Source: an uncultured Candidatus Saccharibacteria bacterium
GTDB taxonomy: Bacteria; Patescibacteriota; Doudnabacteria; UBA920
NCBI GenBank assembly: GCA_964384035.1
Contig: CAYLIB010000001.1
Location: 135,636-199,635, forward strand
Reading direction: 5' to 3'
Length of the DNA: 64,000 bases
Below, one piece after another: positions 12,672 through 60,756 of the stretch. Position numbers and translations under genes: made by a program. The notes under the pieces are model-generated. The model was not told the DNA's origin and did no database searches. It saw only the letters and a program-made list of their open reading frames with translations. Position 1 is the first letter of the stretch. Every line of letters starts with the position of its first letter.

Positions 12672-12700
12672 AAAAGGGGAATATATTTCAATTCCCCTTA
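12672..12700 (-). terminator. Hairpin at the low-GC / high-GC junction; probable terminator of the high-GC minus-strand operon
   Basis: Stem aggggaat / attcccct lies immediately beyond the stop of 12698..13102. An A7 run precedes it on the + strand, giving a T-run on the - strand. Confidence 0.4.
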
Positions 12701-13102
12701 GACCAGGTCGACCAGTAAAGTCCACTGCTCGAGGTCTTCTTCGAAATATAGTTCCCCTTGAGCAGTGCAGGGGAAGGTAAACCACACAACAGACGCCACG
12801 CAGTCGGCGCGTACATCCATTGGCCCTTCCGGTCTTCCGCAGCCGCAAGGACAAGTGAATTTTTTGGCGAAACTTCTCAAGTCTTGCCTGGGAAATATTT
12901 TGAAACCTACATTTCCCTCCTTCTTATATCTCCGCCCATCAATCATTGTCCACCCTCCATCATAAAGAGCGGACAACTCGCCAAGAGCCCCCACCTGGGA
13001 TGTAAATGTCTGCATCCTGACCCCACAACAATCTTCAAAATCGTATCCCGGGGGGCAGTATGTACGGCAGACGTGACATACGCGCCATAAATCATCTTCC
13101 AT
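12698..13102 (-). CDS. Small Cys-rich protein (high GC); last gene of island-1 operon
   Basis: 134 aa with CHVCRTYC, DCCG and CPCGCG clusters. Occupies the same position as the Cys-rich gene 58837..59514 in island 2. Confidence 0.45.
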   Translation of the reverse strand: MEDDLWRVCHVCRTYCPPGYDFEDCCGVRMQTFTSQVGALGELSALYDGGWTMIDGRRYKKEGNVGFKIFPRQDLRSFAKKFTCPCGCGRPEGPMDVRADCVASVVWFTFPCTAQGELYFEEDLEQWTLLVDLV

Positions 13103-18041: not shown

Positions 18042-18641
18042 CTAAATTCGCTCCCAGTCATACGCCTTTTTACAATCCGTGTTGCGGATTGCAAAAGACC
18101 CCTGCTTTTCGTCACCGGTAATGCGGAAAACAAGATCCCCGTCACCATCCCACCACCAGAAGACCTCCACTTGAACGCTTCCGAGCTGATAAGTGTAGCC
18201 ATGACTTTCACGCACGGCTTCCTCCACCAACTCATTACAAACCAGGTCCAAGTCTGTTATGAAACTTCGACGTTTATCGGCGTTCCAATCAGTGGCGTCT
18301 TTGCGAGGCTCGAAGTTGTCATAACAGCCATAGCCTTCACCAACAAAAGTAATCTGGCGAAGCCATTCCCCAATGAAATTCCAGTTGGGATGAGTGGTCG
18401 CCATGGCGATCACACCCTTCGCGATTTTCTCATTTTCGGTTTCTGGCAAATTGGATACCCTGCTTATTACCCGCTGCCACCACATTCCAAGCTGAAAGAG
18501 AGTCAAGGCGTTGAAGCCCATGGCTAGGAGGATCCAACCCTCCAGCCTGACACCCTTCAGGACAAAAATGAAAGTGGAAACGATCGCCGTGGCGATCGAG
18601 AAATTTCTAACAGCTATTCTGAAGTTCATAACTCTCCTCAA
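18042..18641 (-). CDS. Membrane protein with N-terminal transmembrane helices (high GC)
   Basis: Hydrophobic N-terminus AIATAIVSTFIFVL...WILLAMGFNALTLF. TTG start as given by the track. Conserved upstream leader motif shared with the helicase gene. Confidence 0.4.
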   Translation of the reverse strand: MRRVMNFRIAVRNFSIATAIVSTFIFVLKGVRLEGWILLAMGFNALTLFQLGMWWQRVISRVSNLPETENEKIAKGVIAMATTHPNWNFIGEWLRQITFVGEGYGCYDNFEPRKDATDWNADKRRSFITDLDLVCNELVEEAVRESHGYTYQLGSVQVEVFWWWDGDGDLVFRITGDEKQGSFAIRNTDCKKAYDWERI

Positions 18642-18841
18642 GCTCGGGGCACTACTTTGCCCTTCCCCAAACTTGGCCAGTTTTTTCAGGACCGACTTCT
18701 CGCTTGCTTATGTATTCGCCAGCGAGCATAAAGGCAAAGGCAACCTTGTTTTCCAATCTTGGCAAAGCACCAACGCGTTGTTGATGCCGCCAAGAAAGGA
18801 AAGGTGGTATGCGTTAGTGCGTTGCATACCACCCAGAATTA

Positions 18842-19057
18842 TCACAGGATATAGTCTTCATACGCGGTTTCTTTGCGTTCTTCTTCCAAGCCGCACGTTT
18901 TGCAACGCACGACCACGACAGAAGTCGCAATGTAATCCCACGTATAGTCACCATTATTTATTTTCTCAATCTCACACGAGTGCGAAATTAAAGAAAAGTT
19001 ATGGTCACATTCGTTATTGCAAAATAAGCTCATTTGTTCGTTCATGATATTCTCCAT
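18842..19057 (-). CDS. Small zinc-ribbon-like protein
   Basis: 71 aa with CNNECDH...SHSCE...RCKTCG cysteine pairs. Low confidence because it is short. Confidence 0.3.
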   Translation of the reverse strand: MENIMNEQMSLFCNNECDHNFSLISHSCEIEKINNGDYTWDYIATSVVVVRCKTCGLEEERKETAYEDYIL

Positions 19058-19359
19058 GTTTAAAGTTAAAGTTTTGTGGATGCAATTGATCCCTTTCTTT
19101 AACTCATATACATTTCAAATTCTTGAACGAAACATAGCTCTTTTAATAACGAACAGCTCTATCCAATTTTCAATCCACAAATTTCTTTGCAGACTGAAGA
19201 AAGGAGAGGTTACAAGTTTGAGTGCTAGTCAACTTGTAACCTCTGAATAATTGCGTCCCCAGACTTATCGCTAAGTGTGGGGAAAACTTCCGGATGCCTA
19301 GGATACCGGAAGTGGTATGAAATTGTATGAATGTATCATTTCTACCTAGGATGTTTAAG

Positions 19360-20325
19360 CTACGCCAAAGCGTTGAGTGCCTCGACAACTTTGTCGAGAT
19401 TCTCCGCGCCATGGACCGTAGCCTTGCCCGGGATCCCGCTGGCGGTGAGGCCGGCGGCTTTCAGGGTTTCGAGCAGGTCAGTTTTGCCAAGCTGCGGGTG
19501 CTGGCCGTTGCACCCAACCACGACGACTTCGCCTTCACCAGCCTTGGCGCCGGTGATTGCGACGAACGGCGCCCATTTGTAGCCAGCGAACATCGCGTTC
19601 GTCTGGTTAATCTCAACCCCAACGGGCTGCGAGATAACCAAAACGTTTCCGCGCAGTTCGGCAGCTGCAAGCGCCGCGTTCGTCGCCGCCTCAATGGCTT
19701 TGCCTTCGGCGAGCCGGGCTTCGAAAGCCGCGGTCGCTTCGGCATCGCCCAACAGGTGGCGAATGACGGTAACGCGAAACGCGTTGTCCGCAATCCGCGC
19801 CTTCACGGCGTTGTCAACGCCCGTAGCCAAAGCCTTCGCTTCGGGGCCAACTTCGAGCTGGCGGTTATCGGCCCAGTCGCCAGCCACAACCCACAGCTGA
19901 GGCATGGCCGCAAACTCGCCGCCCACGATGCTCGCGGCCGACAAATGTCCCTCACCCTTGCCAGGGGTGAAGAACAGTTCGGAGGCCAAACCAAGCTCAT
20001 CGCGAAGCTTGGCCCACAAGTCGGCACCGTGCTCATCGAAACATCCGACGAGCCGTGAGCCAATCGCACGAACGAGTTCTGTGGTCATGCCCGGCTCCCG
20101 GTTGTTCACCGGAAGACCGATCAAGACAACCTCGTCGTCCTCGGCCAACTCAGCCACCGCTTTTCGCGCCGGCGATCCCTCGCCCACCTGGAAGGCTTGC
20201 GTGAAGACCACGCGCGCCTCTCCAGCCGCGACTTGCGCCGCGGAAATGCCGCGTGCCAGGAGATACCCGGCAACGGCAAGCAAAGTGGAAGGTGAACCGG
20301 CAGCGATCACTAATAATTTTTTCAC
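19360..20325 (-). CDS. Hypothetical protein (high GC), possibly paralogous to 20625..21755
   Basis: 321 aa. Similar N-terminus (MKKLLVIAAG vs MKIKKIVVSR) and a shared FD(E/H)HG motif (CFDEHGAD vs NFDHHGGG). A hairpin follows at about 19213-19250. Confidence 0.45.
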   Translation of the reverse strand: MKKLLVIAAGSPSTLLAVAGYLLARGISAAQVAAGEARVVFTQAFQVGEGSPARKAVAELAEDDEVVLIGLPVNNREPGMTTELVRAIGSRLVGCFDEHGADLWAKLRDELGLASELFFTPGKGEGHLSAASIVGGEFAAMPQLWVVAGDWADNRQLEVGPEAKALATGVDNAVKARIADNAFRVTVIRHLLGDAEATAAFEARLAEGKAIEAATNAALAAAELRGNVLVISQPVGVEINQTNAMFAGYKWAPFVAITGAKAGEGEVVVVGCNGQHPQLGKTDLLETLKAAGLTASGIPGKATVHGAENLDKVVEALNALA

Positions 20326-20624
20326 GAAAGTTTCCTTTTCCCGCTCTGCCTTTTCTTTCCAGATGGAGCCACCTGGTTCGGCATTGCAGGGAAAGGTTTT
20401 ACTGTGTTCGTTTCATTCCTCACCAACCAAAGTTAGTGGGGGACACGACTCACAGCAAGTAGAGAAAGATTTTGGAAACATATCCGCAATCTCGGCTACA
20501 AAATGCAAAGCAATTTTCACACCTGCACCGCTTTAGCGCCTGCAGTCTCTACCCCCAGATGGCCCCTTCGCCTTGGGGAAACCCCTTAGAAAAGTGTTTC
20601 GCGTCCTCGGGACTTTTGCCCTAC

Positions 20625-21755
20625 TTACGCAACTCTTCTAAGTTGAAAAGGAACAACTGTCTTTCGTGAAGAATTATCCGCATGTGTGGTAACCCACACG
20701 CGGTTGCTTTGGCAGTAACTCTTAACTATCTGAATTACTGCTTCAAGGCTTAGCGACGAACTCTCGGTCCGGTTCGAGCCGATTATAGTCATATGGTTAG
20801 GTCCACCCCAACCTTTGACCGAATCGGCGGATTCGAGTTGCTTACAAAGTTCATCCAGTCTTTCCCCACCGGTTATGGTAAACTTCGCAAAACCGTTTTG
20901 AACGAACTCTGGTTTAACCCCGAGTTGTTCAAAGAGGGGAACAACGTTGCAGTATTTCACCACTCTATTTTCAAGAGGGTGATTTACTTTCGCGTCGAAG
21001 ACCGGATCGAACGAAATGGTAATGTGCGGAGCCCGCCCTTTACTATTTCGCAACCCTTCCATCAAGCCCGGTGTGCCAAACCAAGAAGAATTAATGGCAG
21101 CTATTACAAAGCCATTAACTTCAAACCATTTCACTTGCTTCGCAACTTCCGAAGCGTAAGATTCATGGTTTTTCTTGGCCGTAAGCCAGTTTTCAAACTC
21201 AAGATAGTTTTCAATCAACACGTTCATCGACCGGTAAGGGTCAATCTCGTGCCGAACAATACTATCGAAGAGTCGAAACCCAGCTCTCAGTTGCTCAATT
21301 GGATCCTCGTTACAAAGGAGGAGTCCAGCAAGCAGCCAGGCAAATGTAGGCCCGTCGCTACGCTCATGGCGACTTTTCCTGCCTGCGTCAAACTCGCCAA
21401 CATATTCAACTATTGGCCAAAGTAGCTTCCGCCACCCCGCACCAAAAGTTTCCATATGCTGGTAAGCTTGAAGGCAAGCCGGGCGCATTTCTGTGCCCCC
21501 GCCATGATGGTCAAAATTCATAAGCCACACCTGTCCGCTACCCCCACACTCTATGCAGAGCACTTGGGAGTCGCTCAAGTCTTGGCCGGAAGCCGATCCT
21601 CTCACTACTTCAATTGGCAAACTAAAGACTTGCGTCCCAGCTACCAAAAAAGCAGTAAGCATAGTATCTGGATCGACTCTCGAAACAACGATTTTTTTAA
21701 TCTTCATCGATGCTCCTAAAGCTTGATCCAGACGGATCGATTTCAATTTACTCAA
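20625..21755 (-). CDS. Hypothetical protein with DHH-like motifs; first gene of island-1 operon
   Basis: 376 aa. VDPDTMLTAFL resembles DHH motif I (DxD) and NFDHHGGG resembles motif III. Weak and by eye only. Confidence 0.4.
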   Translation of the reverse strand: MSKLKSIRLDQALGASMKIKKIVVSRVDPDTMLTAFLVAGTQVFSLPIEVVRGSASGQDLSDSQVLCIECGGSGQVWLMNFDHHGGGTEMRPACLQAYQHMETFGAGWRKLLWPIVEYVGEFDAGRKSRHERSDGPTFAWLLAGLLLCNEDPIEQLRAGFRLFDSIVRHEIDPYRSMNVLIENYLEFENWLTAKKNHESYASEVAKQVKWFEVNGFVIAAINSSWFGTPGLMEGLRNSKGRAPHITISFDPVFDAKVNHPLENRVVKYCNVVPLFEQLGVKPEFVQNGFAKFTITGGERLDELCKQLESADSVKGWGGPNHMTIIGSNRTESSSLSLEAVIQIVKSYCQSNRVWVTTHADNSSRKTVVPFQLRRVA

Positions 21756-22748
21756 ACGCGTTGTTTGAGCTTAGGCTGTTATCCAGCCAAAAAAATACCC
21801 ATTCTTATGGGTGCTTGTTTGTTTGGATAATATATTTCCACGCTCGAGACTAAACCGAGCTTCATTTAATTCTTATGTTGTATTTTGTATTCAGTATTTG
21901 CACCACCGGGTTACGCATTCGTCCACGCAAAACAAATACAACGTAACTACTTTCACCCGCTGCAAGCTTCACTCTCGTGAACCCGCCGCTTGGATTACTA
22001 ATAACTACCCCCACACTCATTGCCGAATATGGGATAAATTTACAAAATCACTATTTTTCAAAGTTCATCCCGCACATACACTTGTGTGAAGAAGTGCTAG
22101 CAAGGAATGACCCCCTCACCTGTCTTTTTCCTTCTCTCTCGAGAGCAAAAACAGACGAAGGGTCGCACTCATTGCTAAGCTTTTCCTAGGTAAACATTTT
22201 CCCTTCCATAAATTCGGAAGAAATAGCGTCATACTTTCGGGCTCTAGCAGAACCGGTGGTTCGCCTAGGGCGAACAGGGGATAGGTAAGTGTGGTTAACA
22301 GTTACTCGCTCCTTTTCCCAGATTCCTGTTGCCTGACGGCAACTGTACGCACCTGTCGTACTAATTAAGTTGTAAATATTTATGGGATCTCTCTCTAATA
22401 TGAGGTTCTATAGAGGGATCTGTTGTAAAAGCCTTAGGCCACCATGTATGTATATGTGGATGGGGATTTACAACATATCTCTTTCTATAAAACAAAAGCG
22501 GTGTATATATTCCTCTCTATATAGAGAGAAATACGTACATCGCTTTTCTTGTGCCCTATATGTCACGGTGGGCTACCGCTCTCTCTAATGGACTATTTGA
22601 CTATCAGTAATTTTTATTTAAATATCAGTATACAATAAATTCAGAAAAATGTCAATATTAATGTGTCATAAAATAGTAAAATTTAATTACATCCAATAAA
22701 ATATATATAAAAATCTAAATAAAATTAAATAAATTTGTCATAAAAATC

Positions 22749-22785: not shown

Positions 22786-23658
22786 ATGGAACCCCAAAAC
22801 TCACAAATAAATAACCAGGATCAGCCCATTCCACACTCAGGTCCAAAACAAGAAGAGGGGCAAAATAGAACAAAAAAAGGTGTAGCTTCTAAAGCAAACT
22901 ACACGCAAGTTCTTATGCAAGCAGGTTTAAATGGTTCTCAGGCCCTTATTTACGAAACCTTACTAAAAACTGGCCCCTTAAAAGCCAGTAGTTTAGCCAC
23001 AAGAACCCCATTCAAACGTCAACTTACTTATAAGCTCTTAGAAGAACTAGTAGAAATAGGTCTGGTAGTTAAGCAGGAGCAAAAAGGGAAAGTAGCCATT
23101 TTCGAACCAGCGCATCCCCTAAAGTTAAAAGACTTTATAGAAAAACAACAGGAAAAAGCCAAAGCTGCCGAATTAGCCGTAAGTGGCATGATGGAAAAAC
23201 TAACCCTAGACTACAATTCAGTATTTGGTCGTCCCGGTGTTAAGTTCTACGAAGGAAAAGAGGGGATTATAAAAATCTACGAAACCTTATTAGAAAACGG
23301 AAAAAATATAGACAGTATAGAAGACAAAGGCGAAATGGCTAGTTTTATACCAGAATATTCCAGGCAATACCCAAAGCTAAGAGTAAAAAGAAATATTTTC
23401 AATAGAGTTATCGCTCCGTCAGATAATCCTATAAACGAATCCAGCAAAGTGCTCATGAGAGAAACCAGATCCATCCCCACAGAATCATTCCCGTTTCGCA
23501 TGGACATAAAAATTGCTGGTCAGCTAGTTAGTCTAATCACATTTCATAAAGATAACCCCGTAGGTATTCTTATAGACAACCCAGAAATAGCCGACAACTT
23601 TAAAATCCTATTCGATTTAATTTGGAGATCATCAGAAAAAAATAAACCCGCTTTATAA
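22786..23658 (+). CDS. TrmB-family winged-HTH transcriptional regulator paralogue (copy 1)
   Basis: N-terminal TrmB-like HTH: GLNGSQALIYETLLKTGPLKASSLATRTPFKRQLTYKLLEELVEIGLV. C-terminal domain is closest to copy 52486..53250 (shared PFRMDIKI...ILIDN.EIADN..ILF). Confidence 0.7.
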   Translation: MEPQNSQINNQDQPIPHSGPKQEEGQNRTKKGVASKANYTQVLMQAGLNGSQALIYETLLKTGPLKASSLATRTPFKRQLTYKLLEELVEIGLVVKQEQKGKVAIFEPAHPLKLKDFIEKQQEKAKAAELAVSGMMEKLTLDYNSVFGRPGVKFYEGKEGIIKIYETLLENGKNIDSIEDKGEMASFIPEYSRQYPKLRVKRNIFNRVIAPSDNPINESSKVLMRETRSIPTESFPFRMDIKIAGQLVSLITFHKDNPVGILIDNPEIADNFKILFDLIWRSSEKNKPAL

Positions 23659-52400: not shown

Positions 52401-52463
52401 TCCTCTAAAGAAGAAGCTAGGCAAACTCTAGTTTCAGAACGGTACAGTGTGAATGAAATTTAA
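49449..52463 (+). CDS. Giant partner protein (1004 aa), helical with a C-terminal Rossmann/SAM-methyltransferase-like domain; paralogue of 23670..27263
   Basis: LLELGPGSG motif-I-like block and several further collinear blocks shared with the 1197-aa protein. Mid-region AEYEY module shared with the 669-aa protein. Confidence 0.65.
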   Translation: MSRRPEEVLMFGEQEPQVREFKEPKTLEQQKHEEQIALNSFLYAEPAEQLEVDESNLGSLISELLNSPSGQRAKTIINSIVEYIQSSKEPRLRVKQAEKELTSSHIHLNIETLTLLGELDRFREEFEMDPELAEELDLQDVLDNPTKEKLLYLAGKNDRKGNIVLHKILDAAKRQLVTLQNLYVNPSTHEPEPAVFALSEQMLEFAQEAKAVCKNDLLYRHILDYENTRRTIATGLPGGSEASTEYAFERLIESSSNRLALGLYSEEGRDSADACIALTDSLVGEYKNGKLFRVYTKPSSNETETIKTACIKQNHTDDEYIYEALQREIDEYTEHTPLNWKLETKLLIHEFHKHLEQEKRTFFFDLSRINGWEKLHPVVLDEILATNEYAAFAQGKLQKAKPVSSEVLQNLLAPAGAEKGAEYEYQYLMSLEYRSFLENSLGIPVETLPPHVQVELLRVNNALTKEKFHQVLKAIRDSKFPTELATVFFCARADERYIDVVLDILEKTKYKSSLQTTLFEGYANHVEAVHGKTNEVLRELEQKGFTSLSYTDVAKALLAESDFALKDLQAKLEAQPDNANQIARNFQNLLGQTSASELYKRGTFEQIARAFESPKADIDPAEWAASQKVIQQEMLEGINKALYLRMLAEKGFLAPKPAIFWEISRGLKESNIRFGVDTEKFLNKVATRTNGGVLLELGPGSGRGKEDRAHSRLSEFQDIAIGNKVFFDLEPIIGSFLDIEKLEADLNSTLNEEDRALLIDTLTKALMVESGGLAKDHIQYDSETLEYLAKDINTLKVEWAKHKTKLKGVTAIPSSEGAIVEGDTVRFPNKIDITHLADALNKIAQSPYHYLNSQTKHQDLYTHINAFPEGVIIGDFSNLKRLKKESLAGVMAIRSDVYIEGANYVEHLATVAEKLQDGGVYVSDAFRELYGKGYRQTEIEAVKKVLQEKFPKDTFEFLIVTGPGFEGKEVEKTIPLAVYLTKNASSKEEARQTLVSERYSVNEI

Positions 52464-52487
52464 AACTCCCCTTAGGGGAGTTTTTTT
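52462..52487. terminator. Bidirectional terminator between 49449 and 52486
   Basis: Stem ctcccc / ggggag with loop tta, then T7. Confidence 0.55.
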
Positions 52488-53250
52488 AAACAATCATTTT
52501 CCAAAACGTTTCAAATAGTATCCGGTAGTTGTCTGCAATTTCTTGGTTATCTATTAGAATTGCTACCGGATGTTCTTTCTGAAAACTAGTTTGTAGTACG
52601 TACCGGTCAAAAATTTTAATATCCATCCGAAACGGAAATTTCTCTAGTGGTAGTGTCTTAACTTCAAGCAGTAGCTTGGGGTCTGTTTTGTTTACCCTGT
52701 TTACAGCAGGGGAGATAGTGCGCGATTTAATTCCGCGTTTCACCCGCTTTTTTATATAGATATCAACATAGTCTCTAAAGTAAGCATCCATATCGCCTTT
52801 TTCTTCAAAACTCACAACCGTCTTAGCGTTTTCGAGTAAGAACTCATACGCCTGAATTATTCCTTCCTTCCCTTCAAAAAACCTAACCCCTGGACGCCCC
52901 GTGGCTAAATTAAAGTCGATAGTCATTTTCTCAAGAGAGCCAGAAACCGCTTGCTCTGCTACCTTTGCAAGTTCTGCTTTTTTCTCCGCCCATTCCTTCA
53001 GTTTAATTGGATGCGAAGCTTCAAACACCGCCACTTTACCAGGTTCATCTTTTTTAATAACCAGGCCTATCTCTAGTAATCGCTCCAGAATTTTATACAC
53101 CAGTGTTCTTTCTACTGGAATTTTTACACTAATTTTAGAAGCCGGCATCTGTCCATGTATAAGCAGGGCTTCATACACCAAAGCCTGTTCAACGCTAAGT
53201 CCAGAAAGGAGGAGGGTATTATGATGTGAAAAATTTTGAGGAATGTTCAT
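52486..53250 (-). CDS. TrmB-family winged-HTH transcriptional regulator paralogue (copy 6)
   Basis: N-terminus MNIP...LSGLSVEQALVYEALLIHGQMPASKISVKIPVERTLVYKILERLLEIGLV. Closest to copy 1 at 22786. Confidence 0.7.
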   Translation of the reverse strand: MNIPQNFSHHNTLLLSGLSVEQALVYEALLIHGQMPASKISVKIPVERTLVYKILERLLEIGLVIKKDEPGKVAVFEASHPIKLKEWAEKKAELAKVAEQAVSGSLEKMTIDFNLATGRPGVRFFEGKEGIIQAYEFLLENAKTVVSFEEKGDMDAYFRDYVDIYIKKRVKRGIKSRTISPAVNRVNKTDPKLLLEVKTLPLEKFPFRMDIKIFDRYVLQTSFQKEHPVAILIDNQEIADNYRILFETFWKMIV

Positions 53251-53437
53251 GGCTAATATTATTTGTAATTCCCAACTTCATTAGGAATCTTAAGAATTTT
53301 GACCTTTACTACACTAATTATAGCACAATAAAATAATTTTGTGAAGCCATCTTCACAAAATAAGTAAATAAAAATAGGTAGAAAGTACCTATTTTTATTA
53401 TACATACACAAATAAGGCTTAATTATGTGAAATACTA

Positions 53438-53466
53438 TTGACATTTTTCATAAAATACTGTATACT
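53438..53466 (+). promoter_or_regulatory. Conserved cassette promoter (copy B)
   Basis: TTGACA, 17 nt, TATACT. Followed by a leader hairpin and T-run (53519-53577) and a roughly 270-nt GC-rich leader. Confidence 0.5.
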
Positions 53467-53738
53467 GAGTTTTAAACAAATTCTAAAACCAAGTGAGTTT
53501 AGAGAGAGCTCAGTAAGTAAATGGTTTGCCCAGGTTTTCTCTATATATAAGAAATACTGGGCAAGCCATTTTGTTTTAACGCATGGAAGCAAGCGCAGGG
53601 ATTCATTCAAACAAAGCCCGCCACCTTCCTTCCAGCCGCTAAACCAAAACCAATCACTCCCAACGGCACGCGCCCGCGGGAAAAGCCAGAACCTTGGCCA
53701 GCCTGGAAACGGTTCGGCCAAAACCATAAGGAGAAAAA

Positions 53739-54338
53739 ATGAATAAAGACATCGCTTCTATCGAGTTAGATTTTATCGGCACGGTGGAAAAAGTGGCCCT
53801 CAACATTTCGAATACGCTTTCTTTACTTGTGGGGCTGAGTCCCTGGATCAAAAAAGAGAACGTCAATCGCAATGACGGTCCACAGTATTTTTTCCGAAAT
53901 TTACTTCAAGTTGATCTGCATACCATGGTCGTGGTTGCCGACCAGATGCAAGAGTTCCTCGACCCGGAACGCGAGGGAGAAAACAACCTGGAATGGCATA
54001 TCGGCGTAGAGTTCGGTACTGGCAGTGAATTCTACCAGAATCGGAAAATTACGGTCGGTAAGGGGATTAAAATAAAAATTGAAGACCAGACGTTACGTCT
54101 GAGTCTTAAGCCGTCGATAAGCGCCGGAGGCTGCGCAGCCAAGTTGATTCTAGAGTTTCCAGAAGGTCGCGTTACCAGAGAGTTTATCGATGCAATACTC
54201 TGGCAATCTCTTATAGATGTGGGAATTCGAAACGGATTCCAATCATACACTGGGTCTACCTGCGCAACCTGGGGGCCGACGGCCCCTTACTGTGCTGTCG
54301 AGGTACATGAGGTAAAGTGTTACCTCGAACGCGAGTGA
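53739..54338 (+). CDS. Hypothetical protein (high GC); first gene of island 2
   Basis: RBS aaggag. 199 aa. Confidence 0.5.
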   Translation: MNKDIASIELDFIGTVEKVALNISNTLSLLVGLSPWIKKENVNRNDGPQYFFRNLLQVDLHTMVVVADQMQEFLDPEREGENNLEWHIGVEFGTGSEFYQNRKITVGKGIKIKIEDQTLRLSLKPSISAGGCAAKLILEFPEGRVTREFIDAILWQSLIDVGIRNGFQSYTGSTCATWGPTAPYCAVEVHEVKCYLERE

Positions 54339-54715
54339 TATTCCCGACGAAAGAAAGTCCGCCTCAACTTTCTTTCGTCACCTTTTTTAGAACCATCACT
54401 CACAAAGTGGTGTTTCGAAATCAGGTAATTACTAAAGAGGTTTGCATCTTTTCTATTTGCCCTCGTTCTGCGAAGCGAGAGGGGAAACCGGTCTTTCATC
54501 CTTAAGGATGAAGAAAATATTTTCCCTCACCCGCCTCGCAGAACCCTCCACCATGTATTCCTATGTTTTCTAATGTCATTCCGGGCGACTGAAAGGAGAT
54601 CCGGAATCCGTGAGATTAAAAGACTTAGTCGTCCCACCCCACACGAGTGGACACAGGACAAAAGAGCCGCAGAATACCGGCTATGGAGGAATGAAGCGGG
54701 GCAGAAGGAAAAGTA

Positions 54716-55060
54716 ATGAATCAGAGATATTTCAACACTACCCTCGGCCTCTCCATGCTCCCCGACGGCGGAGCAGAGATCAAAACCCTCACCGACGACG
54801 AGGCGAAAGCCTGGTTGGTGGCCGACTTCACCAACGCCGCCAACCCGGCCCATGGCAACACCTTGCAAGCCCTCACCCAAAAACTCGGCGTAGACCTTAC
54901 TCTCGCGGAAGGCACCAAAGCCCCACGTGTGTATCTCGAGCACGGCGACCAGTGCCTCGTCGCTGAAGTCTCGAAAATCCCCCGGGAAACACGAGAGTTC
55001 ACCGATGAGGAGATAGGTGTCGCGACTTTCAGATTTCGATTGGTCACGGTAAGTAGTTAG
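54716..55060 (+). CDS. Hypothetical protein (high GC)
   Basis: 114-aa ORF in island 2. Confidence 0.4.
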   Translation: MNQRYFNTTLGLSMLPDGGAEIKTLTDDEAKAWLVADFTNAANPAHGNTLQALTQKLGVDLTLAEGTKAPRVYLEHGDQCLVAEVSKIPRETREFTDEEIGVATFRFRLVTVSS

Positions 55061-55087
55061 TAGTTAGCTGTTTTCCAAAGGAGGCAA

Positions 55088-55411
55088 ATGAAAGTTTCAA
55101 AAGCGGTGGTTTCTTACTTACTCCGGAGGGCGGAGTATGAATTAGGTTCAGAATTCAGGGAACCGGAAGAGTGGCGTGAGGATGAAATCACGTCAGAAGG
55201 ATTAGAACTTCACTTCGGTTTCCATTTTGGTTCTAACTCATCGGACTGGTGCAGCACGCCAGTCCAAGTTCGTCCTTCTCGCGAAGGCGAGAATCTTCTG
55301 GAGTATAAACAGAAGATAGTAGGAAAGATAGCGGAGGCTATCGCCGAGTTAAATCGGCACATAGACACGCATCTGTCTACATACCCGCATGAACAGAAGG
55401 ACAATGAGTAA
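55088..55411 (+). CDS. Hypothetical protein (high GC)
   Basis: 107-aa ORF with RBS aaggagg. Confidence 0.4.
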   Translation: MKVSKAVVSYLLRRAEYELGSEFREPEEWREDEITSEGLELHFGFHFGSNSSDWCSTPVQVRPSREGENLLEYKQKIVGKIAEAIAELNRHIDTHLSTYPHEQKDNE

Positions 55412-55541
55412 GTTTCGAACGGTGCAGGTTTTTAGATAGGAGAAAAGTTTCCTTTCCTGCACCGAACCTTTTTCGGGGGCGTGATCCAAAGCGGATCGTG
55501 CTTGACCCGAAATTGGCAACTACATTTTAAAGGAGGCAAGA

Positions 55542-56051
55542 ATGAGATTGATAGTAAACTGCGAGATTAGTTTCCGGGGCATTCTATGGAATGCGCCATG
55601 GTACCTAACATTTTTACTCTCAGAAGGGGATAAGAGAAATTATTTGCTATATGACTTGCTTCTCCAAACGGAGAGGGTAGTCATCAGTCAAACAGGGTAT
55701 GACGACGAAATTGGTCGAGGGTATGAACTTGATTTTCTTTCCAAGGAAGGTAATCTTCTGCAAAAAGAATACGGCGCTGCACACAGCGTTAGTCTTGAGG
55801 ATGCGGGGTGCCGAAACCTTTTCTTTTATGAAAACCCAGTGTTTTCTGAAGAGTTCTTGGTAAACCTTGCAAAGCAAGGGAATCAAGTTGCTGAGCATAT
55901 GCTAAGGCGCAGATCGATTCCTCCCGAACTCTGGGAGAAATATCAGTATGTGTTTCCCAGTCCGGAGCTGCTCCCTGCATATACCTGGGAGTATCCAATT
56001 TCAGAGGAGCAAAAGCAAGAAATTAAATTGCTTTTAGAAAACAAGCAATGA
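55542..56051 (+). CDS. Hypothetical protein
   Basis: 169-aa ORF with RBS aaaggagg. Confidence 0.4.
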   Translation: MRLIVNCEISFRGILWNAPWYLTFLLSEGDKRNYLLYDLLLQTERVVISQTGYDDEIGRGYELDFLSKEGNLLQKEYGAAHSVSLEDAGCRNLFFYENPVFSEEFLVNLAKQGNQVAEHMLRRRSIPPELWEKYQYVFPSPELLPAYTWEYPISEEQKQEIKLLLENKQ

Positions 56052-56299
56052 ATTGCTTATAGAAGGAAAACTATAAACCCGCCTGTGATTGCTTGGGTGT
56101 TACATAAGCAGTGCGTAAGTGGGGGACGCGTATAACTCCCACAGCGTGCTAGTTGCATGTCTACTTTAAAAACTCGTCATGTGAACACTGTTCACATGCC
56201 TTCCTCCCAGGTAACAAATATGGTTCTCTCTCCACATTTGTTGCCGGAGAGGAGGGTAATAAAACCCAAACACCAAAGCTTTCTTTCAAAGGAGATCAT

Positions 56300-58714
56300 A
56301 TGCCTATTATCGACATCACCGCCCAAGTCCGAGCCCGTCAAGAACAAGAACGGTTAAGCCAGCAGGCCGAGCAGGAAGCCAAAGAAGCCCCTGCCAAAGC
56401 CTGGTGGGGAAAAAACGGCACCTTCATTGAGGCGCATGTAACAACAAGATTGAAGCAACTAACTATCGGATCCACTCCAACTATAGAGGTGGATGGGCAC
56501 GAGGTAACATTCGTCACCCAGACTCTTCTGGGCGAACTACTAAACCAACCCTCAACCGAGGTTGCTCCCCAGATACAGTATTCCTGGGGGTGCGAGGTCT
56601 ACGTGGAAGGGTTCGAAACCCGGTTTCATTCCCACGTTAAGCACGAAGAAGTGCGACAAGGCTGGGGTTTAGTTAAACCCGGTGAACTGCGTCGGTGGGA
56701 CGAGAAAAATTTTACGGTAAGTGTTGAGTTTCAAATCCTTAATACGCATTCCGCAAAATTTACTCTAACTTGTCCGGTTGTCCCACAAGCCCCTGAGCTT
56801 AGGGGAGACCACGTCTTTCAATCGCTTATAGTTCAGCTCCCGAACGGTGAGGTCCTAGCTCAAGAGAACAATCTCACCAGACATGCGTTCAAGGGGCTAT
56901 GGGGTGACTTCGATGCAGAAAAATTAAAACTTCAAGGCATCGACCAAGAAGTTAAAAAGCTCGAAGCAATAATCAATCTAGAAACGCCAAAATGTGAGCT
57001 CTCTATGGTCGGAGTCACTCGCTACGAAAGTAGCGGCGCCCTGGTTGTAAAAGGTGATGTTTGGCACACGGGCCCCCCGGCCCAAAGTGTCCCATATCGC
57101 GTACAGGTAACAGCGTTGCTTTTCAATTTTTCCACTCCAACTTTTTCAAAGTCCGAAAAGGGAATTGGGGTGGACGATCTCAAGGTCGAAGTGAATCAAA
57201 AATTCGACCGTGAACAAATTAGAAAAAAAATTGAAAGCTATGTTACCGGGAAAATTCAAAACGCGGGCTTCCAAGTTAACGAGTACTCGCAAAAACTTAT
57301 TGACTCTTTGGTAGAAGCCTGCATAAAGGCAATGCCAAGGGTTGTAATTGAAAGCCAAGTTCTCGTGGTTGAAGAAGACCCATTCCAGCACAACCAAACC
57401 CGGGCAGAACAAGCCTACCCCGGCATGGGTATCTGCCCAAATGGACACGACGGGAAACTCCGAAAAGTTCTCCTCCCCGAAGTTGCAGAGTTTCTGGGAG
57501 TAAAAGGCGAACTTTTGGAAAATATTCCCGTGCAGTGGGGGTTGGGGCGAGTGGGCATGGGTTCACTCTTGAGTTTAGAAAACTTCACCGACCAACGTTT
57601 GGTTTTCGCAAGCCCTTTGCACCCAATAGGCGCTCGCTTTAAAGCGCAGGTAAAAACCCAAAACGGCAAAGCCAGCGCAACCACAGTTTTTAGTGCTAAT
57701 GTCATGCGCGACGTCACTCGTTACACCACAGGTGGCCCGGTAACCGAACCGGTCATTGTGGGAACCAAAAACGCCGAACATACATTCGCGGTGAGTCTCC
57801 CCGCAGGTTTCAAAGGCGACCTCAATGGTGAATATGAAATCGAGGTCTGCGACACTCACCAAAGACGCGGGACAGAATGTGTCTACATGGTCATTCTGCC
57901 AGAAGTGGCAGCAGACCAAGATGACTATTCAGTGACCGAAAGCTTTGTGGTTGGTATCGAAACCAGTGGTAGCCGCAGCTTCGAGCAAGTGTGGGTAATT
58001 TCCCCCAAAGGGAAATTTATTCCGCACTCTCGCGCCGAAGCAAGGGGAGGTAGGCGAGGCAGACCAGCAGACCGCACTCGCTACCACTGGGACTCCGCTC
58101 CTGCCGGGTGTCTCGTACTCACCCGGAGGCAGTCCAATTACGGCTACACCCACTCAGTGGAGTTCGTGGTCGTAAGGAAACCAGGGATTATCTCAAAAGA
58201 GCAACTGAGTGCAGTCGAAGTAATTCTCCAGAATACAACCAACTGGAAATACTTCGTCGGCTCCCAAGTTCGGTGGGATCTCTCCAAAGTGGGAAGCGTC
58301 ACCTTCACCACCGAACGGGAAGCAGGTCGTGATGATCTGGAAGATTTTATCCGCCAGATCAGCACCGCCCCGGTAAACCCGTTCGACTACGAGATCAAAC
58401 GGGAAGCAATACCTCCGGATTCCGAATTGAGGTCTCCGGCCGGTGTCCGCTTCACCGTCTATCCACTAAAAGCAGGTAACCAAATCCCACCCACAGAACT
58501 TTCTGCGCCAGTGGGTGAGGCTGAAACCGAGGGCGTCAAATTCGAACTCATGCCTTCCTCTCCTGGCTGGCTTCGCTGCAGCTGCGGGCGAGCCGAAATG
58601 TATTGGAAGAAGGCCGAGTGGAAAGCGCTCGAGCCCGAATCCAAACACACCGTAACCTGTAAGGGTTGCAGGGGAGTGGGCGAAATTCAAAAACCAAAGG
58701 AGGTAAAAAACTAA
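56300..58714 (+). CDS. 804-aa protein with a C-terminal zinc-ribbon EWKAL module (high GC); paralogue by C-terminus of 13301..15718
   Basis: RBS aaaggag plus ATG at 56300; the track's upstream extension from 56153 is rejected. C-terminus GWLRCSCGRAEMYWKKAEWKALEPESKHTVTCKGCRGVG matches that of the island-1 805-aa protein. Confidence 0.6.
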   Translation: MPIIDITAQVRARQEQERLSQQAEQEAKEAPAKAWWGKNGTFIEAHVTTRLKQLTIGSTPTIEVDGHEVTFVTQTLLGELLNQPSTEVAPQIQYSWGCEVYVEGFETRFHSHVKHEEVRQGWGLVKPGELRRWDEKNFTVSVEFQILNTHSAKFTLTCPVVPQAPELRGDHVFQSLIVQLPNGEVLAQENNLTRHAFKGLWGDFDAEKLKLQGIDQEVKKLEAIINLETPKCELSMVGVTRYESSGALVVKGDVWHTGPPAQSVPYRVQVTALLFNFSTPTFSKSEKGIGVDDLKVEVNQKFDREQIRKKIESYVTGKIQNAGFQVNEYSQKLIDSLVEACIKAMPRVVIESQVLVVEEDPFQHNQTRAEQAYPGMGICPNGHDGKLRKVLLPEVAEFLGVKGELLENIPVQWGLGRVGMGSLLSLENFTDQRLVFASPLHPIGARFKAQVKTQNGKASATTVFSANVMRDVTRYTTGGPVTEPVIVGTKNAEHTFAVSLPAGFKGDLNGEYEIEVCDTHQRRGTECVYMVILPEVAADQDDYSVTESFVVGIETSGSRSFEQVWVISPKGKFIPHSRAEARGGRRGRPADRTRYHWDSAPAGCLVLTRRQSNYGYTHSVEFVVVRKPGIISKEQLSAVEVILQNTTNWKYFVGSQVRWDLSKVGSVTFTTEREAGRDDLEDFIRQISTAPVNPFDYEIKREAIPPDSELRSPAGVRFTVYPLKAGNQIPPTELSAPVGEAETEGVKFELMPSSPGWLRCSCGRAEMYWKKAEWKALEPESKHTVTCKGCRGVGEIQKPKEVKN

Positions 58715-58836
58715 CACGAGGGTCACCCTCATCACACACCGGGGACGATAAAACATACGTCCCCCTCTTTTTCCAGCCTGTGACCACCATCGTCGTCGGC
58801 ATGGAAATTGAGAAAAATTTTATAAGGAGAAAAATT

Positions 58837-59514
58837 ATGGAGCTAACTAATCAGGAGTTATTCTGGGTAGCGGTAGCAATGTTACCGCAGGGTTCAAAAA
58901 GAAGAGTTAGGCTAGAGCGTATGCAAGAAGAATCAGAACTGTGCCTGGTATGTGGGTACATCGACCAAGGTGACCCAGTTCACAAAGTACACGGCGAGAA
59001 AGTTTTGGAATACCTACGAGAATTAGAAGCCGGTCTAAAAGTATGTTGCGCCGCATACCCCAACTGTCACAACGACCCTGGCGGATATGTGCTAATAGGC
59101 GGTCCTGAGGAGATTAGGTTTTGCTCCGACTTCTGTCGGTTGAGTCTAATGAATCCAAAAAAATACAAAAAACTCCTCGCCCAAACCCCTAAGGAAGGAG
59201 AGGTGGAAAACTTCGAAAAGAAGTTAAAGAAAATTCCTCTCAAAGCAATAAAAAAAGCCGTGGGTGAAACCGAACAAAGAGAGGGGATAGACGTCCCCAC
59301 TAGTATTACGGAAAAAGACAGAGAATCTGTTATAAAATATTTACTAGTAGTAAGGTCTGTTGAATCCGGTGCATGGGATTGGATAAACCATCCCGATAGA
59401 CTTTACGCCAACATTACCAAAATCGAAGGCTTAACAATTTACGGTCACGTTTTCTACGATGACCAAGAGGACTTCGAGGAGGTCGAAATAGACCTCACTT
59501 TTTCAGGGGATTAA
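58837..59514 (+). CDS. Cys-rich protein (high GC); last gene of island 2
   Basis: RBS aaggag plus ATG at 58837. Cysteine clusters CLVCGY, CCAAYPNCHND and FCSDFC. Terminator gggatt / aatccc plus T-run at about 59508-59535. Confidence 0.5.
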   Translation: MELTNQELFWVAVAMLPQGSKRRVRLERMQEESELCLVCGYIDQGDPVHKVHGEKVLEYLRELEAGLKVCCAAYPNCHNDPGGYVLIGGPEEIRFCSDFCRLSLMNPKKYKKLLAQTPKEGEVENFEKKLKKIPLKAIKKAVGETEQREGIDVPTSITEKDRESVIKYLLVVRSVESGAWDWINHPDRLYANITKIEGLTIYGHVFYDDQEDFEEVEIDLTFSGD

Positions 59515-59577
59515 AAAAATCCCTTGCTTTTTTTATTCCCCCGGATTTCGCTATACTATCTCTATAATAAAAAACCT

Positions 59578-60744: not shown

Positions 60745-60756
60745 CGCGGGGTTTTA
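60733..60756. terminator. Bidirectional terminator between 59578 and 60754
   Basis: Stem gccccgc / gcggggt with loop ctaa (containing the stop codon), then tttt. Confidence 0.5.

What the first reader, a model, noticed from the sequence alone, without database searches (positions are those of the whole stretch)
53460..59520. Second high-GC island ends with the same gene pair (about 800-aa protein with C-terminal EWKAL zinc ribbon, then a Cys-rich protein) as island 1
The 805-aa protein of island 1 and the 804-aa protein of island 2 share a roughly 40-aa C-terminal module: GW(V/L)RC..C....M..KKEWKAL.......VTC..C.R.G, with two CxxC pairs. In both islands this protein is the penultimate gene. 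It is followed by a small Cys-rich protein, 134 aa in island 1 and 225 aa in island 2. That pair sits at the end of the cargo farthest from the cognate TrmB regulator.

The rest of the two proteins and the upstream cargo genes differ: helicase and membrane protein in island 1, four small proteins in island 2. This suggests a conserved core effector pair with swappable accessory genes.
Basis: seen in the sequence. Interest (0 to 1): 0.7.

Follow-up and report, generated by a model that had tools for sequence, protein, structure and literature searches.

The report
Shared zinc-ribbon tail in TrmB cassettes
Two GC-rich gene clusters in this probably CPR-like bacterial genome are sister cassettes with related TrmB regulators and promoters, and their largest, otherwise unrelated proteins end in the same ~50-residue zinc-ribbon tail; the "conserved gene pair" is only positional, and the function is unknown.

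Summary
The core observation is real. The 805-aa protein (13301-15718, -) and the 804-aa protein (56300-58714, +) share a C-terminal C4 zinc ribbon (BLASTP E=5e-8). It beats all 20,000 shuffles even with the cysteines masked.

The rest of the two proteins is unrelated:
- The 805-aa protein is a coiled-coil protein that sits next to a DEAH-type helicase.
- The 804-aa protein belongs to a rare, unannotated family. It has a new ~150-aa "NYGY" domain followed by the ribbon, and some members are fused to a DEAH helicase.

The two Cys-rich downstream proteins are not homologous (E=12). Each is, however, the last gene of its operon, with a terminator directly after it.

What the two islands share is:
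- sister TrmB regulators (49% identity, the closest pair among 7 paralogues);
- a 48-nt promoter block;
- the ribbon.

A second metagenomic contig keeps the same TrmB, promoter and 804-family layout, but with different neighbouring genes. A phage-like contig carries another ribbon-bearing family member.

No known defence, phage or Pfam family matches, and no solved fold matches. My best reading is TrmB-gated accessory cassettes whose large proteins use a shared docking or nucleic-acid-binding ribbon. The function is inferred, not shown.

The parts
52486..53250 (-). TrmB-family regulator of island 2 (254 aa)
   Evidence: Pfam PF01978 at 44.5 bits, above the 25.6 cutoff. 49% identical to the island-1 TrmB, the closest pair of 7 paralogues. 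GC3 is 0.36, like the backbone.
53336..53361 (.). Palindrome TTTGTGAAG-N-CTTCACAAA overlapping the -35 of the TrmB gene's own promoter; candidate operator (inferred)
   Evidence: Hairpin or palindrome listed. A minus-strand promoter lies at 53345-53317. The sequence is conserved in the L023 cassette.
53433..53480 (+). Cargo promoter block of island 2 (TTGACA-17-TATACT at 53438-53466)
   Evidence: 48 nt, 81% identical to 22613-22660 in the same orientation relative to TrmB and cargo. 11/12 match to the promoter consensus. The 31-nt degenerate core occurs exactly twice in the window, against 0 expected. Conserved in L023.
53739..54338 (+). Island 2 cargo gene 1 (199 aa), no annotation
   Evidence: No hit in Pfam, PHROG, PADLOC or NCBIfam. 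A terminator-like hairpin follows at 54346-54379.
54716..55060 (+). Island 2 cargo gene 2 (114 aa), weakly STIV B116-like
   Evidence: Pfam PF08960 at 16.8 bits, below the 26-bit cutoff, E=0.0078. A homologue (E=2e-21) lies on the phage-like contig L024 that also carries the ribbon protein P0026.
55088..55411 (+). Island 2 cargo gene 3 (107 aa), no annotation
   Evidence: No family hit.
55542..56051 (+). Island 2 cargo gene 4 (169 aa), no annotation
   Evidence: No family hit.
56300..58714 (+). 804-aa protein (P0001), a member of a rare unannotated family
   Evidence: Full-length relatives are P0002 (48% identity over the C-terminal half) and P0007 (E=1.8e-129). No hit in Pfam, PHROG, PADLOC or NCBIfam. 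AF2 mean pLDDT is 71.7. No significant match in the PDB or BFVD.
57920..58414 (+). "NYGY" domain (residues 541-705 of the 804-aa protein), a new conserved ~150-aa domain
   Evidence: Shared with about 25 representative proteins out of 1.84 billion. No Pfam family covers this domain in any of the 24 members scanned. No PDB sequence match. pLDDT is 82-94 across most of the domain.
58532..58693 (+). C-terminal C4 zinc-ribbon module of the 804-aa protein (residues ~745-798)
   Evidence: Alignment with the 805-aa C-terminus. AF2 gives beta-beta-beta-helix-beta-beta at pLDDT 86-89.
58837..59514 (+). Cys-rich last gene of island 2 (225 aa, 7 Cys, 5 His)
   Evidence: Gene call in L001. No family hit. 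Not similar to the island-1 Cys-rich protein.
59504..59526 (+). Terminator-like hairpin that ends the island-2 operon
   Evidence: 9-bp stem followed by a T-run.
22786..23658 (+). TrmB-family regulator of island 1 (290 aa)
   Evidence: Pfam PF01978 at 40.8 bits. 49% identical to the island-2 TrmB.
22613..22660 (-). Cargo promoter block of island 1 (TTGACA-17-TATACT at 22655-22627)
15738..17807 (-). DEAH-type SF2 helicase (689 aa), immediately upstream of the 805-aa gene
   Evidence: Pfam DEAD at 42.3 bits and Helicase_C at 32.5 bits, both above their cutoffs. Partial HrpB-like match. Aligns to the helicase part of the helicase-NYGY-ribbon fusion P0016 (E=1e-6) and of the helicase-NYGY fusion P0011, which has no ribbon (E=2e-5).
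13301..15718 (-). 805-aa protein of island 1, with no relatives found outside its own near-identical cluster
   Evidence: The only hit among 5.8 billion proteins is itself. No NYGY domain. AF2 gives a long coiled coil at residues 294-486 with pLDDT 80-90; the rest is low confidence. Weak SMC-like coiled-coil hit.
13304..13462 (-). C-terminal C4 zinc-ribbon module of the 805-aa protein (residues ~753-805)
   Evidence: AF2 pLDDT is 92-96, with the same secondary-structure order as in the 804-aa protein. It also aligns to the P0016 and P0026 C-termini (E=0.001 and 0.007).
12698..13102 (-). Cys-rich last gene of island 1 (134 aa, 10 Cys)
   Evidence: No family hit. Its CxCGCxRxEG motif resembles a 203-aa protein near P0016 (E=0.005, z=4.9).
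12674..12699 (-). Terminator-like hairpin that ends the island-1 operon
   Evidence: 9-bp stem followed by a T-run.
18042..21755 (-). Upstream cargo of island 1 (376 aa, 321 aa, ~199-aa hydrophobic protein), no annotation
   Evidence: No family hits. Composition is a mosaic: the 321-aa gene has GC 0.62 and GC3 0.70.

Best explanation
The two GC-rich islands are paralogous TrmB-gated accessory cassettes.

**Cassette layout (shown)**
- A native-composition TrmB regulator is transcribed divergently from a strong sigma-70-type promoter.
- The promoter drives an operon of compositionally foreign genes.
- The operon ends with a large protein that carries a C-terminal C4 zinc ribbon, then a small Cys-rich protein, then a terminator.
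- The regulators, the promoter block and the ribbon are homologous between the islands. Everything else is different.
- The ribbon is a small portable module (beta-beta-beta-helix-beta-beta, two CxxC knuckles, Lys-ended tail). It also terminates some members of a rare, unannotated protein family defined by a new ~150-aa NYGY domain.
- Two NYGY-family members are fused to a DEAH/HrpA-like helicase, and one of them (P0016) also carries the ribbon. In island 1 the same kind of helicase is a separate gene, directly upstream of the ribbon protein.

**How it probably works (inferred)**
- TrmB represses the cargo promoter until a signal arrives.
- The large proteins are nucleic-acid-directed scaffolds or sensors.
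- The shared ribbon docks them on a common target, either nucleic acid or one host partner.
- The variable neighbouring genes supply different activities.
- The setting looks like conflict or defence, or phage-derived genes, rather than housekeeping.
For: **Shared ribbon**
- BLASTP E=5e-8. The shuffle tests are passed.
- The predicted fold is the same in both proteins, at pLDDT 86-96.
- The ribbon is also present on P0002, P0007, P0016 and P0026.

**Proteins otherwise unrelated**
-.

**Sister regulators and promoter**
-.

**Operon ends**
-.

**Conserved cassette in another organism (L023)**
- A homologue of the 669/1004-aa backbone protein (E=5e-62) and a TrmB (39-43% identity) are followed by conserved intergenic DNA, a 224-aa gene, then P0007.
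- Its cargo shows the same elevated GC3.

**Helicase link**
- P0016 is a DEAH helicase-NYGY-ribbon fusion. P0011 is a DEAH helicase-NYGY fusion without the ribbon.
- The island-1 helicase aligns to both.

**Nucleic-acid-binding flavour**
- The ribbon profile's best PDB matches are RNA-polymerase ribbons, RPA12 (E=0.006) and Rpo12.

**Conflict or phage flavour**
- P0026 lies on a uniformly 54%-GC contig. That contig has an AAA-ATPase matching phrog_8638 (E=1e-137) and phage AAA-ATPases, plus an NrdG-like gene.
- The same contig carries a homologue of the island-2 114-aa gene.
- Toxin-antitoxin genes lie next to P0016 and P0011.
- Patatin and Fic genes lie in the next TrmB cassette.
Against: - No enzymatic or known defence domain was found in either ribbon protein.
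- The fold searches give no significant match, and the OB-fold hits are weak.
- The residues invariant across the NYGY domain are structural (G, Y, P, F, W), not catalytic.
- The N-terminal domain that looks like a cold-shock domain by eye got no Pfam support at E<=0.001.
- A shared target for the ribbon is pure inference.
- The ribbon of the 804-aa protein is only slightly closer to that of the 805-aa protein (42%) than to its own orthologues' ribbons (31-36%) over ~45 positions.
- TrmB regulation of the cargo was not tested.
Confidence: 0.5

Rival explanations
1. One reading: the ribbon-ended large protein and the Cys-rich small protein form a conserved two-component functional pair, for example with the ribbon binding the Zn-rich partner. 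The pair would be the core of both islands.
For: - The order is identical in both islands: large ribbon protein, then Cys-rich protein, then terminator.
- On L024 a 96-aa CxxxC...CxxC protein directly follows the ribbon protein P0026.
- A 203-aa protein 1.7 kb downstream of P0016 shares a CxCGCxRxEG motif with the island-1 134-aa protein (E=0.005, z=4.9).
- L023 has a 6-Cys 197-aa gene two genes after P0007.
Against: - The two window Cys-rich proteins show no similarity (E=12, z=-0.8), and their Cys patterns differ.
- No Cys-rich ORF follows P0002 in the 790 nt available.
- The gene directly after P0007 has no Cys.
- The gene directly after P0016 is a GNAT.
- The large proteins themselves are not homologous.
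Confidence: 0.2
2. The islands are remnants of recently integrated phage or other mobile DNA. The ribbon proteins would be phage proteins (structural, or for replication or host takeover) with no cellular role, and the TrmB genes would simply be neighbours.
For: - GC3 is elevated and varies gene by gene.
- A phage-like contig, L024, carries both a ribbon/NYGY protein and a homologue of the island-2 114-aa gene.
- That 114-aa protein has a weak hit to a viral B116-like family.
- The NYGY family was not found in 185,579 representative genomes.
Against: - No integrase-type Pfam domain in the ORFs scanned, no tRNA and no flanking direct repeats.
- No PHROG hit for any island gene except the helicase.
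- No hit in IMG/VR, in phage records or in plasmid records.
- The TrmB-promoter-cargo layout is conserved in L023 at only 30-43% protein identity. That indicates long residence and a functional link to the regulator.
Confidence: 0.2
3. The C-terminal resemblance is a chance or generic product of CxxC spacing in two Cys-containing tails.
For: The module is short (~50 aa), and zinc ribbons are common. Hits to individual Pfam ribbon families are all below threshold.
Against: - BLASTP E=5e-8.
- 0 of 20,000 Cys-fixed shuffles reach the observed score, and likewise with Cys masked.
- 14 of the 18 identities are non-Cys residues, including KK.EWKAL.
- The predicted secondary-structure order is the same in both.
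- Further family members exist.
Confidence: 0.02

Closest known systems
Classical C4 zinc ribbons (for example the C-terminal ribbon of RPA12/TFIIS, Rpo12/RpoP, and Pfam Zn_ribbon_4)
   Same: Two CxxC knuckles on beta-hairpins and a size of about 45-50 aa. The best PDB profile match is the RPA12 C-ribbon (E=0.006). There is a weak Zn_ribbon_4 hit.
   Different: All Pfam ribbon hits are below gathering (18.2 against 30.3 bits). The module has a conserved helix (EWKAL) between the knuckles and a Lys-ended tail. It sits at the C-terminus of 800-1400-aa proteins that are not in the transcription machinery.
DEAH/RHA helicases of the HrpA/HrpB type
   Same: The island-1 689-aa protein has a DEIH motif and DEAD plus Helicase_C domains. 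It has a partial HrpB match over residues 102-427. Fusion relatives carry an HA2 winged helix.
   Different: The HrpB equivalog score is 60 bits against a cutoff of 546. No HA2 or OB C-terminal domains were detected in the window protein. It is associated or fused with NYGY/ribbon proteins, which is not described for HrpA/B.
Defence-island style regulator-plus-variable-cargo loci (HTH regulator divergent from anti-phage genes)
   Same: An HTH regulator is divergent from a strong promoter. The cargo is foreign in composition and highly variable. A helicase and toxin-antitoxin, patatin and Fic neighbours are present, and a related family member lies on a phage-like contig.
   Different: There are no PADLOC hits except weak Cas3-like similarity of the helicase. 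No nuclease, TIR, Sir2 or other effector domain was found, and no anti-phage role is known for TrmB regulators (my own knowledge, not searched here). The repeated tandem TrmB cassettes look lineage-specific.
TrmB-family transcription regulators (archaeal sugar regulators TrmB/TrmBL1)
   Same: The N-terminal winged-helix domain matches PF01978 above gathering in all 7 window paralogues.
   Different: There are seven paralogues in 64 kb, each paired with unrelated cargo rather than sugar metabolism genes. The C-terminal domains were not assigned. The organism is bacterial (PolA, RecQ, PilB).

Membership tests
C4 zinc ribbon superfamily | Two CxxC (or CxC) knuckles, 4 invariant Cys | tested here: met
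   The 4 Cys are invariant in 6 sequences. They are C766, C769, C794 and C797 in the 805-aa protein.
C4 zinc ribbon superfamily | Beta-hairpin knuckle fold | tested here: met
   AF2 places strands around both knuckles at pLDDT 86-96 in both proteins. This is a prediction only.
C4 zinc ribbon superfamily | Match to a curated ribbon family at its gathering score | tested here: not met
   The best hits are Zn_ribbon_4 at 18.2 bits (cutoff 30.3) and zf-CCHC at 18.5 bits (cutoff 20.8).
C4 zinc ribbon superfamily | Zinc binding | not testable with these tools
   Needs metal analysis of purified protein.
TrmB family regulator (PF01978) | TrmB winged-helix domain above the Pfam gathering score | tested here: met
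   44.5 bits (52486-53250) and 40.8 bits (22786-23658) against a cutoff of 25.6.
TrmB family regulator (PF01978) | Binds an operator and controls the adjacent operon | not testable with these tools
   Only a conserved palindrome and promoter block were seen.
DEAH/RHA helicase (HrpA/HrpB) | SF2 core (DEAD and Helicase_C domains) with a DExH motif | tested here: met
   42.3 and 32.5 bits, both above cutoff. The DEIH motif is in the sequence.
DEAH/RHA helicase (HrpA/HrpB) | HA2 and OB C-terminal domains; equivalog score | tested here: not met
   There is no HA2 or OB_NTP_bind hit. HrpB TIGR01970 scores 60.2 bits against a cutoff of 546.
Known anti-phage defence systems (PADLOC-DB v2) | Hit of any island protein to a system component model | tested here: not met
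   There are only weak Cas3-like hits of the helicase (E=4.7e-6, 24 bits). Nothing hits the ribbon or Cys-rich proteins.
Prophage or integrative element | Integrase or recombinase, att direct repeats, tRNA target, phage hallmark genes | tested here: not met
   No tRNA, no flanking direct repeats, and no integrase or hallmark PHROG or Pfam hits.
STIV B116-like (PF08960), for the 114-aa island-2 protein | Match at the gathering score | tested here: not met
   16.8 bits against a cutoff of 26. The L024 homologue does not hit at all. No PDB sequence match.
Cold-shock domain (N-terminus of relatives P0002, P0007 and P0009) | Pfam CSD match | tested here: not met
   No CSD family is listed among the hits of the 24 members at E<=0.001. 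The resemblance (KGFGFG...FVH) is by eye only, and the window protein lacks this N-terminal domain.
NYGY-domain family (defined here) | ~150-aa domain with W.I.PDG / LV..H..NYGY / YF.G..W(D/N)(L/F) | tested here: met
   The 804-aa protein has it at residues 541-705 (jackhmmer E=1.9e-70). The 805-aa protein does not.

The most novel reading that the evidence does not exclude
Tandem TrmB-gated cassettes in this CPR-like lineage could be a previously undescribed class of conflict or host-interaction loci. In this reading, a rare protein family shared with phage-like elements acts as a nucleic-acid sensor or effector. That family has a variable N-terminal domain, the NYGY domain and, in some members, the zinc ribbon; two members are fused to a DEAH helicase. 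The ribbon would evolve in concert within a genome because all ribbon-tagged proteins dock on one common partner. The persistent GC-rich codon usage of the cargo, seen in at least three independent contigs, would reflect continual exchange with a ~54%-GC mobile gene pool.
Probability: 0.15. Interest if true: 0.75.

Novelty: new variant of a known kind. Interest (0 to 1): 0.45.

Why it matters
- **An unannotated domain family.** The NYGY domain has no Pfam model covering it and no match to any solved fold. It was found in only 36 of 1.84 billion representative proteins.
- **A portable tail.** A zinc-ribbon module links otherwise unrelated large proteins within one genome.
- **A repeated regulatory architecture.** A native TrmB, a conserved promoter and operator, and foreign-composition cargo recur, and the layout is conserved between uncultivated bacteria.
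- **What would follow.** If the cassettes prove to be conflict or symbiosis loci, they would give a handle on the large unannotated fraction of CPR-like genomes. They would also give TrmB regulators a new role.
- **As it stands.** This is a solid descriptive result without a demonstrated function.

Tried and rejected
**Family libraries**
- Pfam, PHROGs, PADLOC and NCBIfam gave nothing for the ribbon or Cys-rich proteins.

**Homologue searches**
- The word-indexed search of 5.8 billion proteins found only P0002 for the 804-aa protein and nothing for the 805-aa protein.
- The same search with the ribbon alignment returned nothing at all, not even the two query proteins.

**Collection scans**
- Two GTDB representative-genome scans with NYGY alignments gave no confirmed locus. 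The source genome and organism name were therefore not obtained.
- IMG/VR scans with two alignments found nothing. A back-translated KKxEWKAL pattern gave 15 matches, none with flanking CxxC knuckles.
- tblastn against phage and plasmid records found nothing.

**Structure**
- The afdb50 library was unavailable.

**Ideas dropped**
- The island-1 376-aa and 321-aa proteins looked DHH-like by eye (an FDHHG/FDEHG motif). This got no support.
- Recent gene conversion of the ribbon is unlikely. By eye the DNA is only about half identical, apart from an 11-nt GAGTGGAAAGC run.
- Homology between the 225-aa Cys protein and the 102-aa gene after P0007 is not supported (z=3.0, but BLASTP E=6).

**Other**
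- Rfam and tRNA scans of the window found nothing.
- Literature searches on TrmB in CPR or Patescibacteria, and on the accession numbers, found nothing.
Full report
**Setting**

The window is bacterial and about 40% GC. It encodes PolA, RecQ, a PilB-type ATPase, VanW and a PA14 giant protein. It has no tRNA gene and no Rfam hit. It holds seven TrmB-family regulators. Most of them are divergent from a short operon and convergent with the preceding gene.

I suspect a CPR/Patescibacteria-like organism from the gene content. The organism name could not be obtained: the identical contigs are JGI metagenomes 3300005002 and 3300005039 and a Logan assembly, and the GTDB representative scans missed the genome.

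Two patches are GC-rich, at about 12.7-21.8 kb and 53.7-59.5 kb. The excess lies at synonymous sites: GC3 is 0.44-0.70 in the patches against 0.30-0.41 in backbone genes. The TrmB genes themselves have backbone composition.

**Checking the observation**

- The 805-aa ORF (13301-15718, -) and the 804-aa ORF (56300-58714, +) are as described.
- BLASTP aligns only their last ~100 residues, at E=5e-8. The informative part is the last ~50: GW(V/L)RC..C....KK.EWKAL....VTC..C...G.
- With the cysteines fixed, none of 20,000 shuffles reaches the observed Smith-Waterman score (90 against a maximum of 66). With the cysteines masked the result is the same (52 against a maximum of 50).
- An HMM of the module finds just these two copies in the six-frame translation of the window.
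- In both islands the next gene is small and Cys-rich: 134 aa with 10 Cys, and 225 aa with 7 Cys.
- Terminator-like hairpins sit directly after both, at 12699-12674 (-) and 59504-59526 (+). The ribbon protein is therefore penultimate and the Cys-rich protein last in each operon.
- The two Cys-rich proteins are unrelated (BLASTP E=12; z=-0.8).

**What the two large proteins are**

They are not homologues of each other outside the ribbon.

*The 805-aa protein*
- It has no relative other than itself among 5.8 billion clustered proteins.
- AF2 predicts a long coiled coil (residues 294-486, pLDDT 80-90), low-confidence flanks and a very confident ribbon (pLDDT 92-96).
- NCBIfam gives only a weak SMC coiled-coil hit.

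*The 804-aa protein (P0001)*
- The word-indexed search found one relative, P0002 (48% identity over the C-terminal half).
- A full HMMER search of 1.84 billion representatives with the P0001+P0002 profile gave 36 hits.
- These include a third full-length relative, P0007 (E=1.8e-129).
- About 25 proteins share a ~150-aa domain (P0001 residues 541-705). Its motifs are W.I.PDG, LV..H..NYGY.. and YF.G..W(D/N)(L/F)S..G.
- Of the 24 members scanned, Pfam hits were only helicase and AAA domains; none covers this domain. It has no PDB sequence match. I call it the NYGY domain.
- The 805-aa protein lacks this domain.

**The ribbon is a portable module**

- The same C-terminal ribbon, with four invariant Cys and a tail ending G.(V/I)(K/Q/E)K, closes P0001, P0002, P0007, P0016, P0026 and the 805-aa protein. 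Most NYGY proteins lack it.
- The 805-aa ribbon also aligns to those of P0016 (E=0.001) and P0026 (E=0.007).
- Both AF2 models give the same order of elements: strand, strand, strand, short helix (EWKAL), strand, strand.
- The profile's best PDB matches are RNA-polymerase ribbons: the RPA12 C-ribbon (E=0.006) and Rpo12. All Pfam ribbon hits fall below gathering. It is a zinc ribbon, but not a member of any curated family.
- Over the ~45-residue core, the 804-aa ribbon is 42% identical to the 805-aa ribbon. It is 31-36% identical to the ribbons of its own orthologues. This hints at within-genome convergence or exchange. The margin is only a few residues. By eye, the aligned DNA is only about half identical, apart from an 11-nt run.

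**Helicase link**

- P0016 (1367 aa) is a DEAH/HA2 helicase fused to the NYGY domain and the ribbon. P0011 (1606 aa) is a helicase fused to the NYGY domain.
- In island 1 a 689-aa DEAH-type helicase lies directly upstream of the 805-aa ribbon protein. It scores above gathering for DEAD and Helicase_C and has a partial HrpB match.
- It aligns to the helicase parts of P0016 and P0011 (E=1e-6 and 2e-5).
- The helicase-plus-ribbon-protein association therefore recurs, as a fusion elsewhere and as neighbouring genes here.

**What the islands really share**

- The island-1 and island-2 TrmB proteins are 49% identical, the closest pair among the seven. The others are 19-37% identical.
- The TrmB-cargo intergenic regions share a 48-nt block containing TTGACA-17-TATACT, pointing at the cargo. 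Its 31-nt core occurs exactly twice in the window, against zero expected.
- A second pair of cassettes (TrmB 42224 and TrmB 60754, 37% identical) shares a different 105-nt intergenic block. Regulator and promoter therefore duplicate together while the cargo differs.

**Conservation elsewhere**

*L023, which carries P0007 (Logan SRR23592405)*
- The contig has the same layout:
  1. a 790-aa homologue of the window's 669-aa and 1004-aa backbone proteins (E=5e-62 and 5e-35);
  2. a convergent TrmB (39-43% identical to the window paralogues);
  3. a divergent operon of a 224-aa gene, P0007, a 102-aa gene and a 197-aa gene.
- The intergenic DNA is strikingly conserved with island 2. The conserved elements are:
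  - the palindrome TTTGTGAAG..CTTCACAAA, which overlaps the TrmB promoter;
  - TTATGTGAAATAYTATTGACATTTT;
  - GTATACTG;
  - GTTTAAACA.
- The cargo again has higher GC3 (0.50-0.65) than TrmB and the backbone (0.43-0.46).
- Only the ribbon/NYGY protein is shared between the two cargos.

*L024, which carries P0026 (NCBI GCA_023250595.1)*
- The contig is uniformly about 54% GC.
- It has an AAA-ATPase matching phrog_8638 (E=1e-137) and 33-42% identical to phage AAA-ATPases, plus an NrdG-like radical-SAM gene.
- It carries a homologue (E=2e-21) of the island-2 114-aa gene.
- A 96-aa CxxxC..CxxC gene lies directly after P0026.

*Negative searches*
- The family was not found in phage or plasmid records, in IMG/VR, or in 185,579 representative genomes.

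**Structure**

- The 804-aa model has mean pLDDT 71.7, with pLDDT 82-94 across most of the NYGY domain and 86-89 in the ribbon.

**Interpretation**

*Shown*
- The islands are sister TrmB cassettes.
- The ribbon is a shared, statistically robust, portable module.
- The large proteins are otherwise unrelated.
- The Cys-rich last genes are analogous in position only.
- The cassette architecture and its regulatory DNA are conserved in another organism.

*Inferred*
- TrmB gates the cargo promoter.
- The ribbon docks different large scaffolds on a common nucleic-acid or protein target.
- The cassettes serve conflict or phage-related functions. This rests on the helicase link, toxin-antitoxin, patatin and Fic neighbours, the phage-like relative and the foreign codon usage.

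*The pair hypothesis*
- It remains possible in a looser form, as "some Zn-binding small protein follows".
- Support comes from the L024 neighbour and a CxCGCxRxEG motif shared between the island-1 134-aa protein and a protein near P0016.
- Against it stand P0002, the gene directly after P0007, and the GNAT directly after P0016.

**Verdict**

The feature is real and partly as described. The mechanistic label "conserved effector pair" is not supported. The interest is moderate: an unannotated domain family and a repeated regulatory cassette in an uncultivated lineage, with the function still unknown.

Noticed in passing
window 22786-23658, 31511-32275, 36201-36965, 42224-43033, 47510-48274, 52486-53250, 60754-61572: There are seven TrmB-family paralogues in 64 kb. 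Most are arranged as tandem modules, with the TrmB on one strand and a divergent promoter plus variable cargo on the other. Pairwise identity is 19-49%.
   Followed up: partly
window 23670-27263 (-), 40218-42227 (+), 49449-52463 (+); L023 124-2496: The large unannotated backbone proteins of 1197, 669 and 1004 aa are paralogues (E=1.8e-57 and 8.9e-34). Each lies tail-to-tail with, or next to, a TrmB gene. A 790-aa homologue holds the same position in L023.
   Followed up: partly
window 43095-43199 and 61719-61823: A 105-nt direct repeat (73% identity) lies in the intergenic regions next to TrmB 42224 and TrmB 60754. These are the second-closest TrmB pair (37%). This is a second case of regulator and promoter duplicating together.
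   Followed up: partly
window 21756-22626 (- strand): About 870 nt lie between the island-1 cargo promoter and the first cargo ATG with no ORF called there in L007. It contains repeated TAGAGAGAG-like motifs and a 34-nt palindrome at 22491-22550. A similar TTAGAGAGAGC motif follows the island-2 promoter. This may be a long leader or a non-coding RNA. Rfam finds nothing.
   Followed up: no
window 53336-53361; L023 about 3349-3371: The palindrome TTTGTGAAG-N-CTTCACAAA overlaps the -35 of the TrmB gene's own promoter. It is conserved between two organisms whose TrmB proteins are only ~39% identical. It is a candidate autoregulatory operator.
   Followed up: partly
window 19360-20325 (-): A 321-aa gene has GC 0.62 and GC3 0.70, well above its island neighbours (0.47-0.52). 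Together with the 114-aa gene at 54716-55060 (GC3 0.69), it shows that the islands are gene-by-gene compositional mosaics.
   Followed up: partly
window 61900-63432 (+); L001 17369-19468: A third GC-rich cargo gene (510 aa, GC3 0.58, no annotation) follows TrmB 60754. Just beyond the window the same contig encodes a patatin-like protein and a Fic/RhuM protein.
   Followed up: no
window 35179-35258 and 38029-38108: An 80-nt direct repeat at 94% identity. One copy overlaps the 3' end of the RecQ gene (38031-40181, -), and the other lies 2.85 kb away in an unannotated stretch.
   Followed up: no
window 59524-60744 (+): A 406-aa protein with a weak C-terminal GNAT-like region (below gathering) has its own terminator and backbone GC3. 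It sits between the island-2 terminator and the next TrmB. On L005 a 149-aa ORF that looks GNAT-like by eye (not scanned) follows the ribbon protein P0016.
   Followed up: no
L024 (NCBI GCA_023250595.1, JAHFAJ010000002.1) 5330-9491: A phage-like gene block holds an AAA-ATPase (phrog_8638, E=1e-137), DUF1257, DUF2997 and an NrdG-like radical SAM gene, upstream of the ribbon/NYGY protein P0026. The whole contig is ~54% GC, similar to the window's islands.
   Followed up: partly
P0002, P0007, P0009, P0012, P0018, P0022, P0027 and others (N-termini): Many relatives begin with a ~70-aa domain, (W/F)..(D/E)KG(F/Y)GF...G...FVH......P......G, that looks like a cold-shock domain by eye. It also occurs on proteins without the NYGY domain. 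The three such proteins in the 24-member Pfam scan (P0002, P0007, P0009) gave no CSD hit at E<=0.001, and the window's 804-aa protein lacks the domain.
   Followed up: partly
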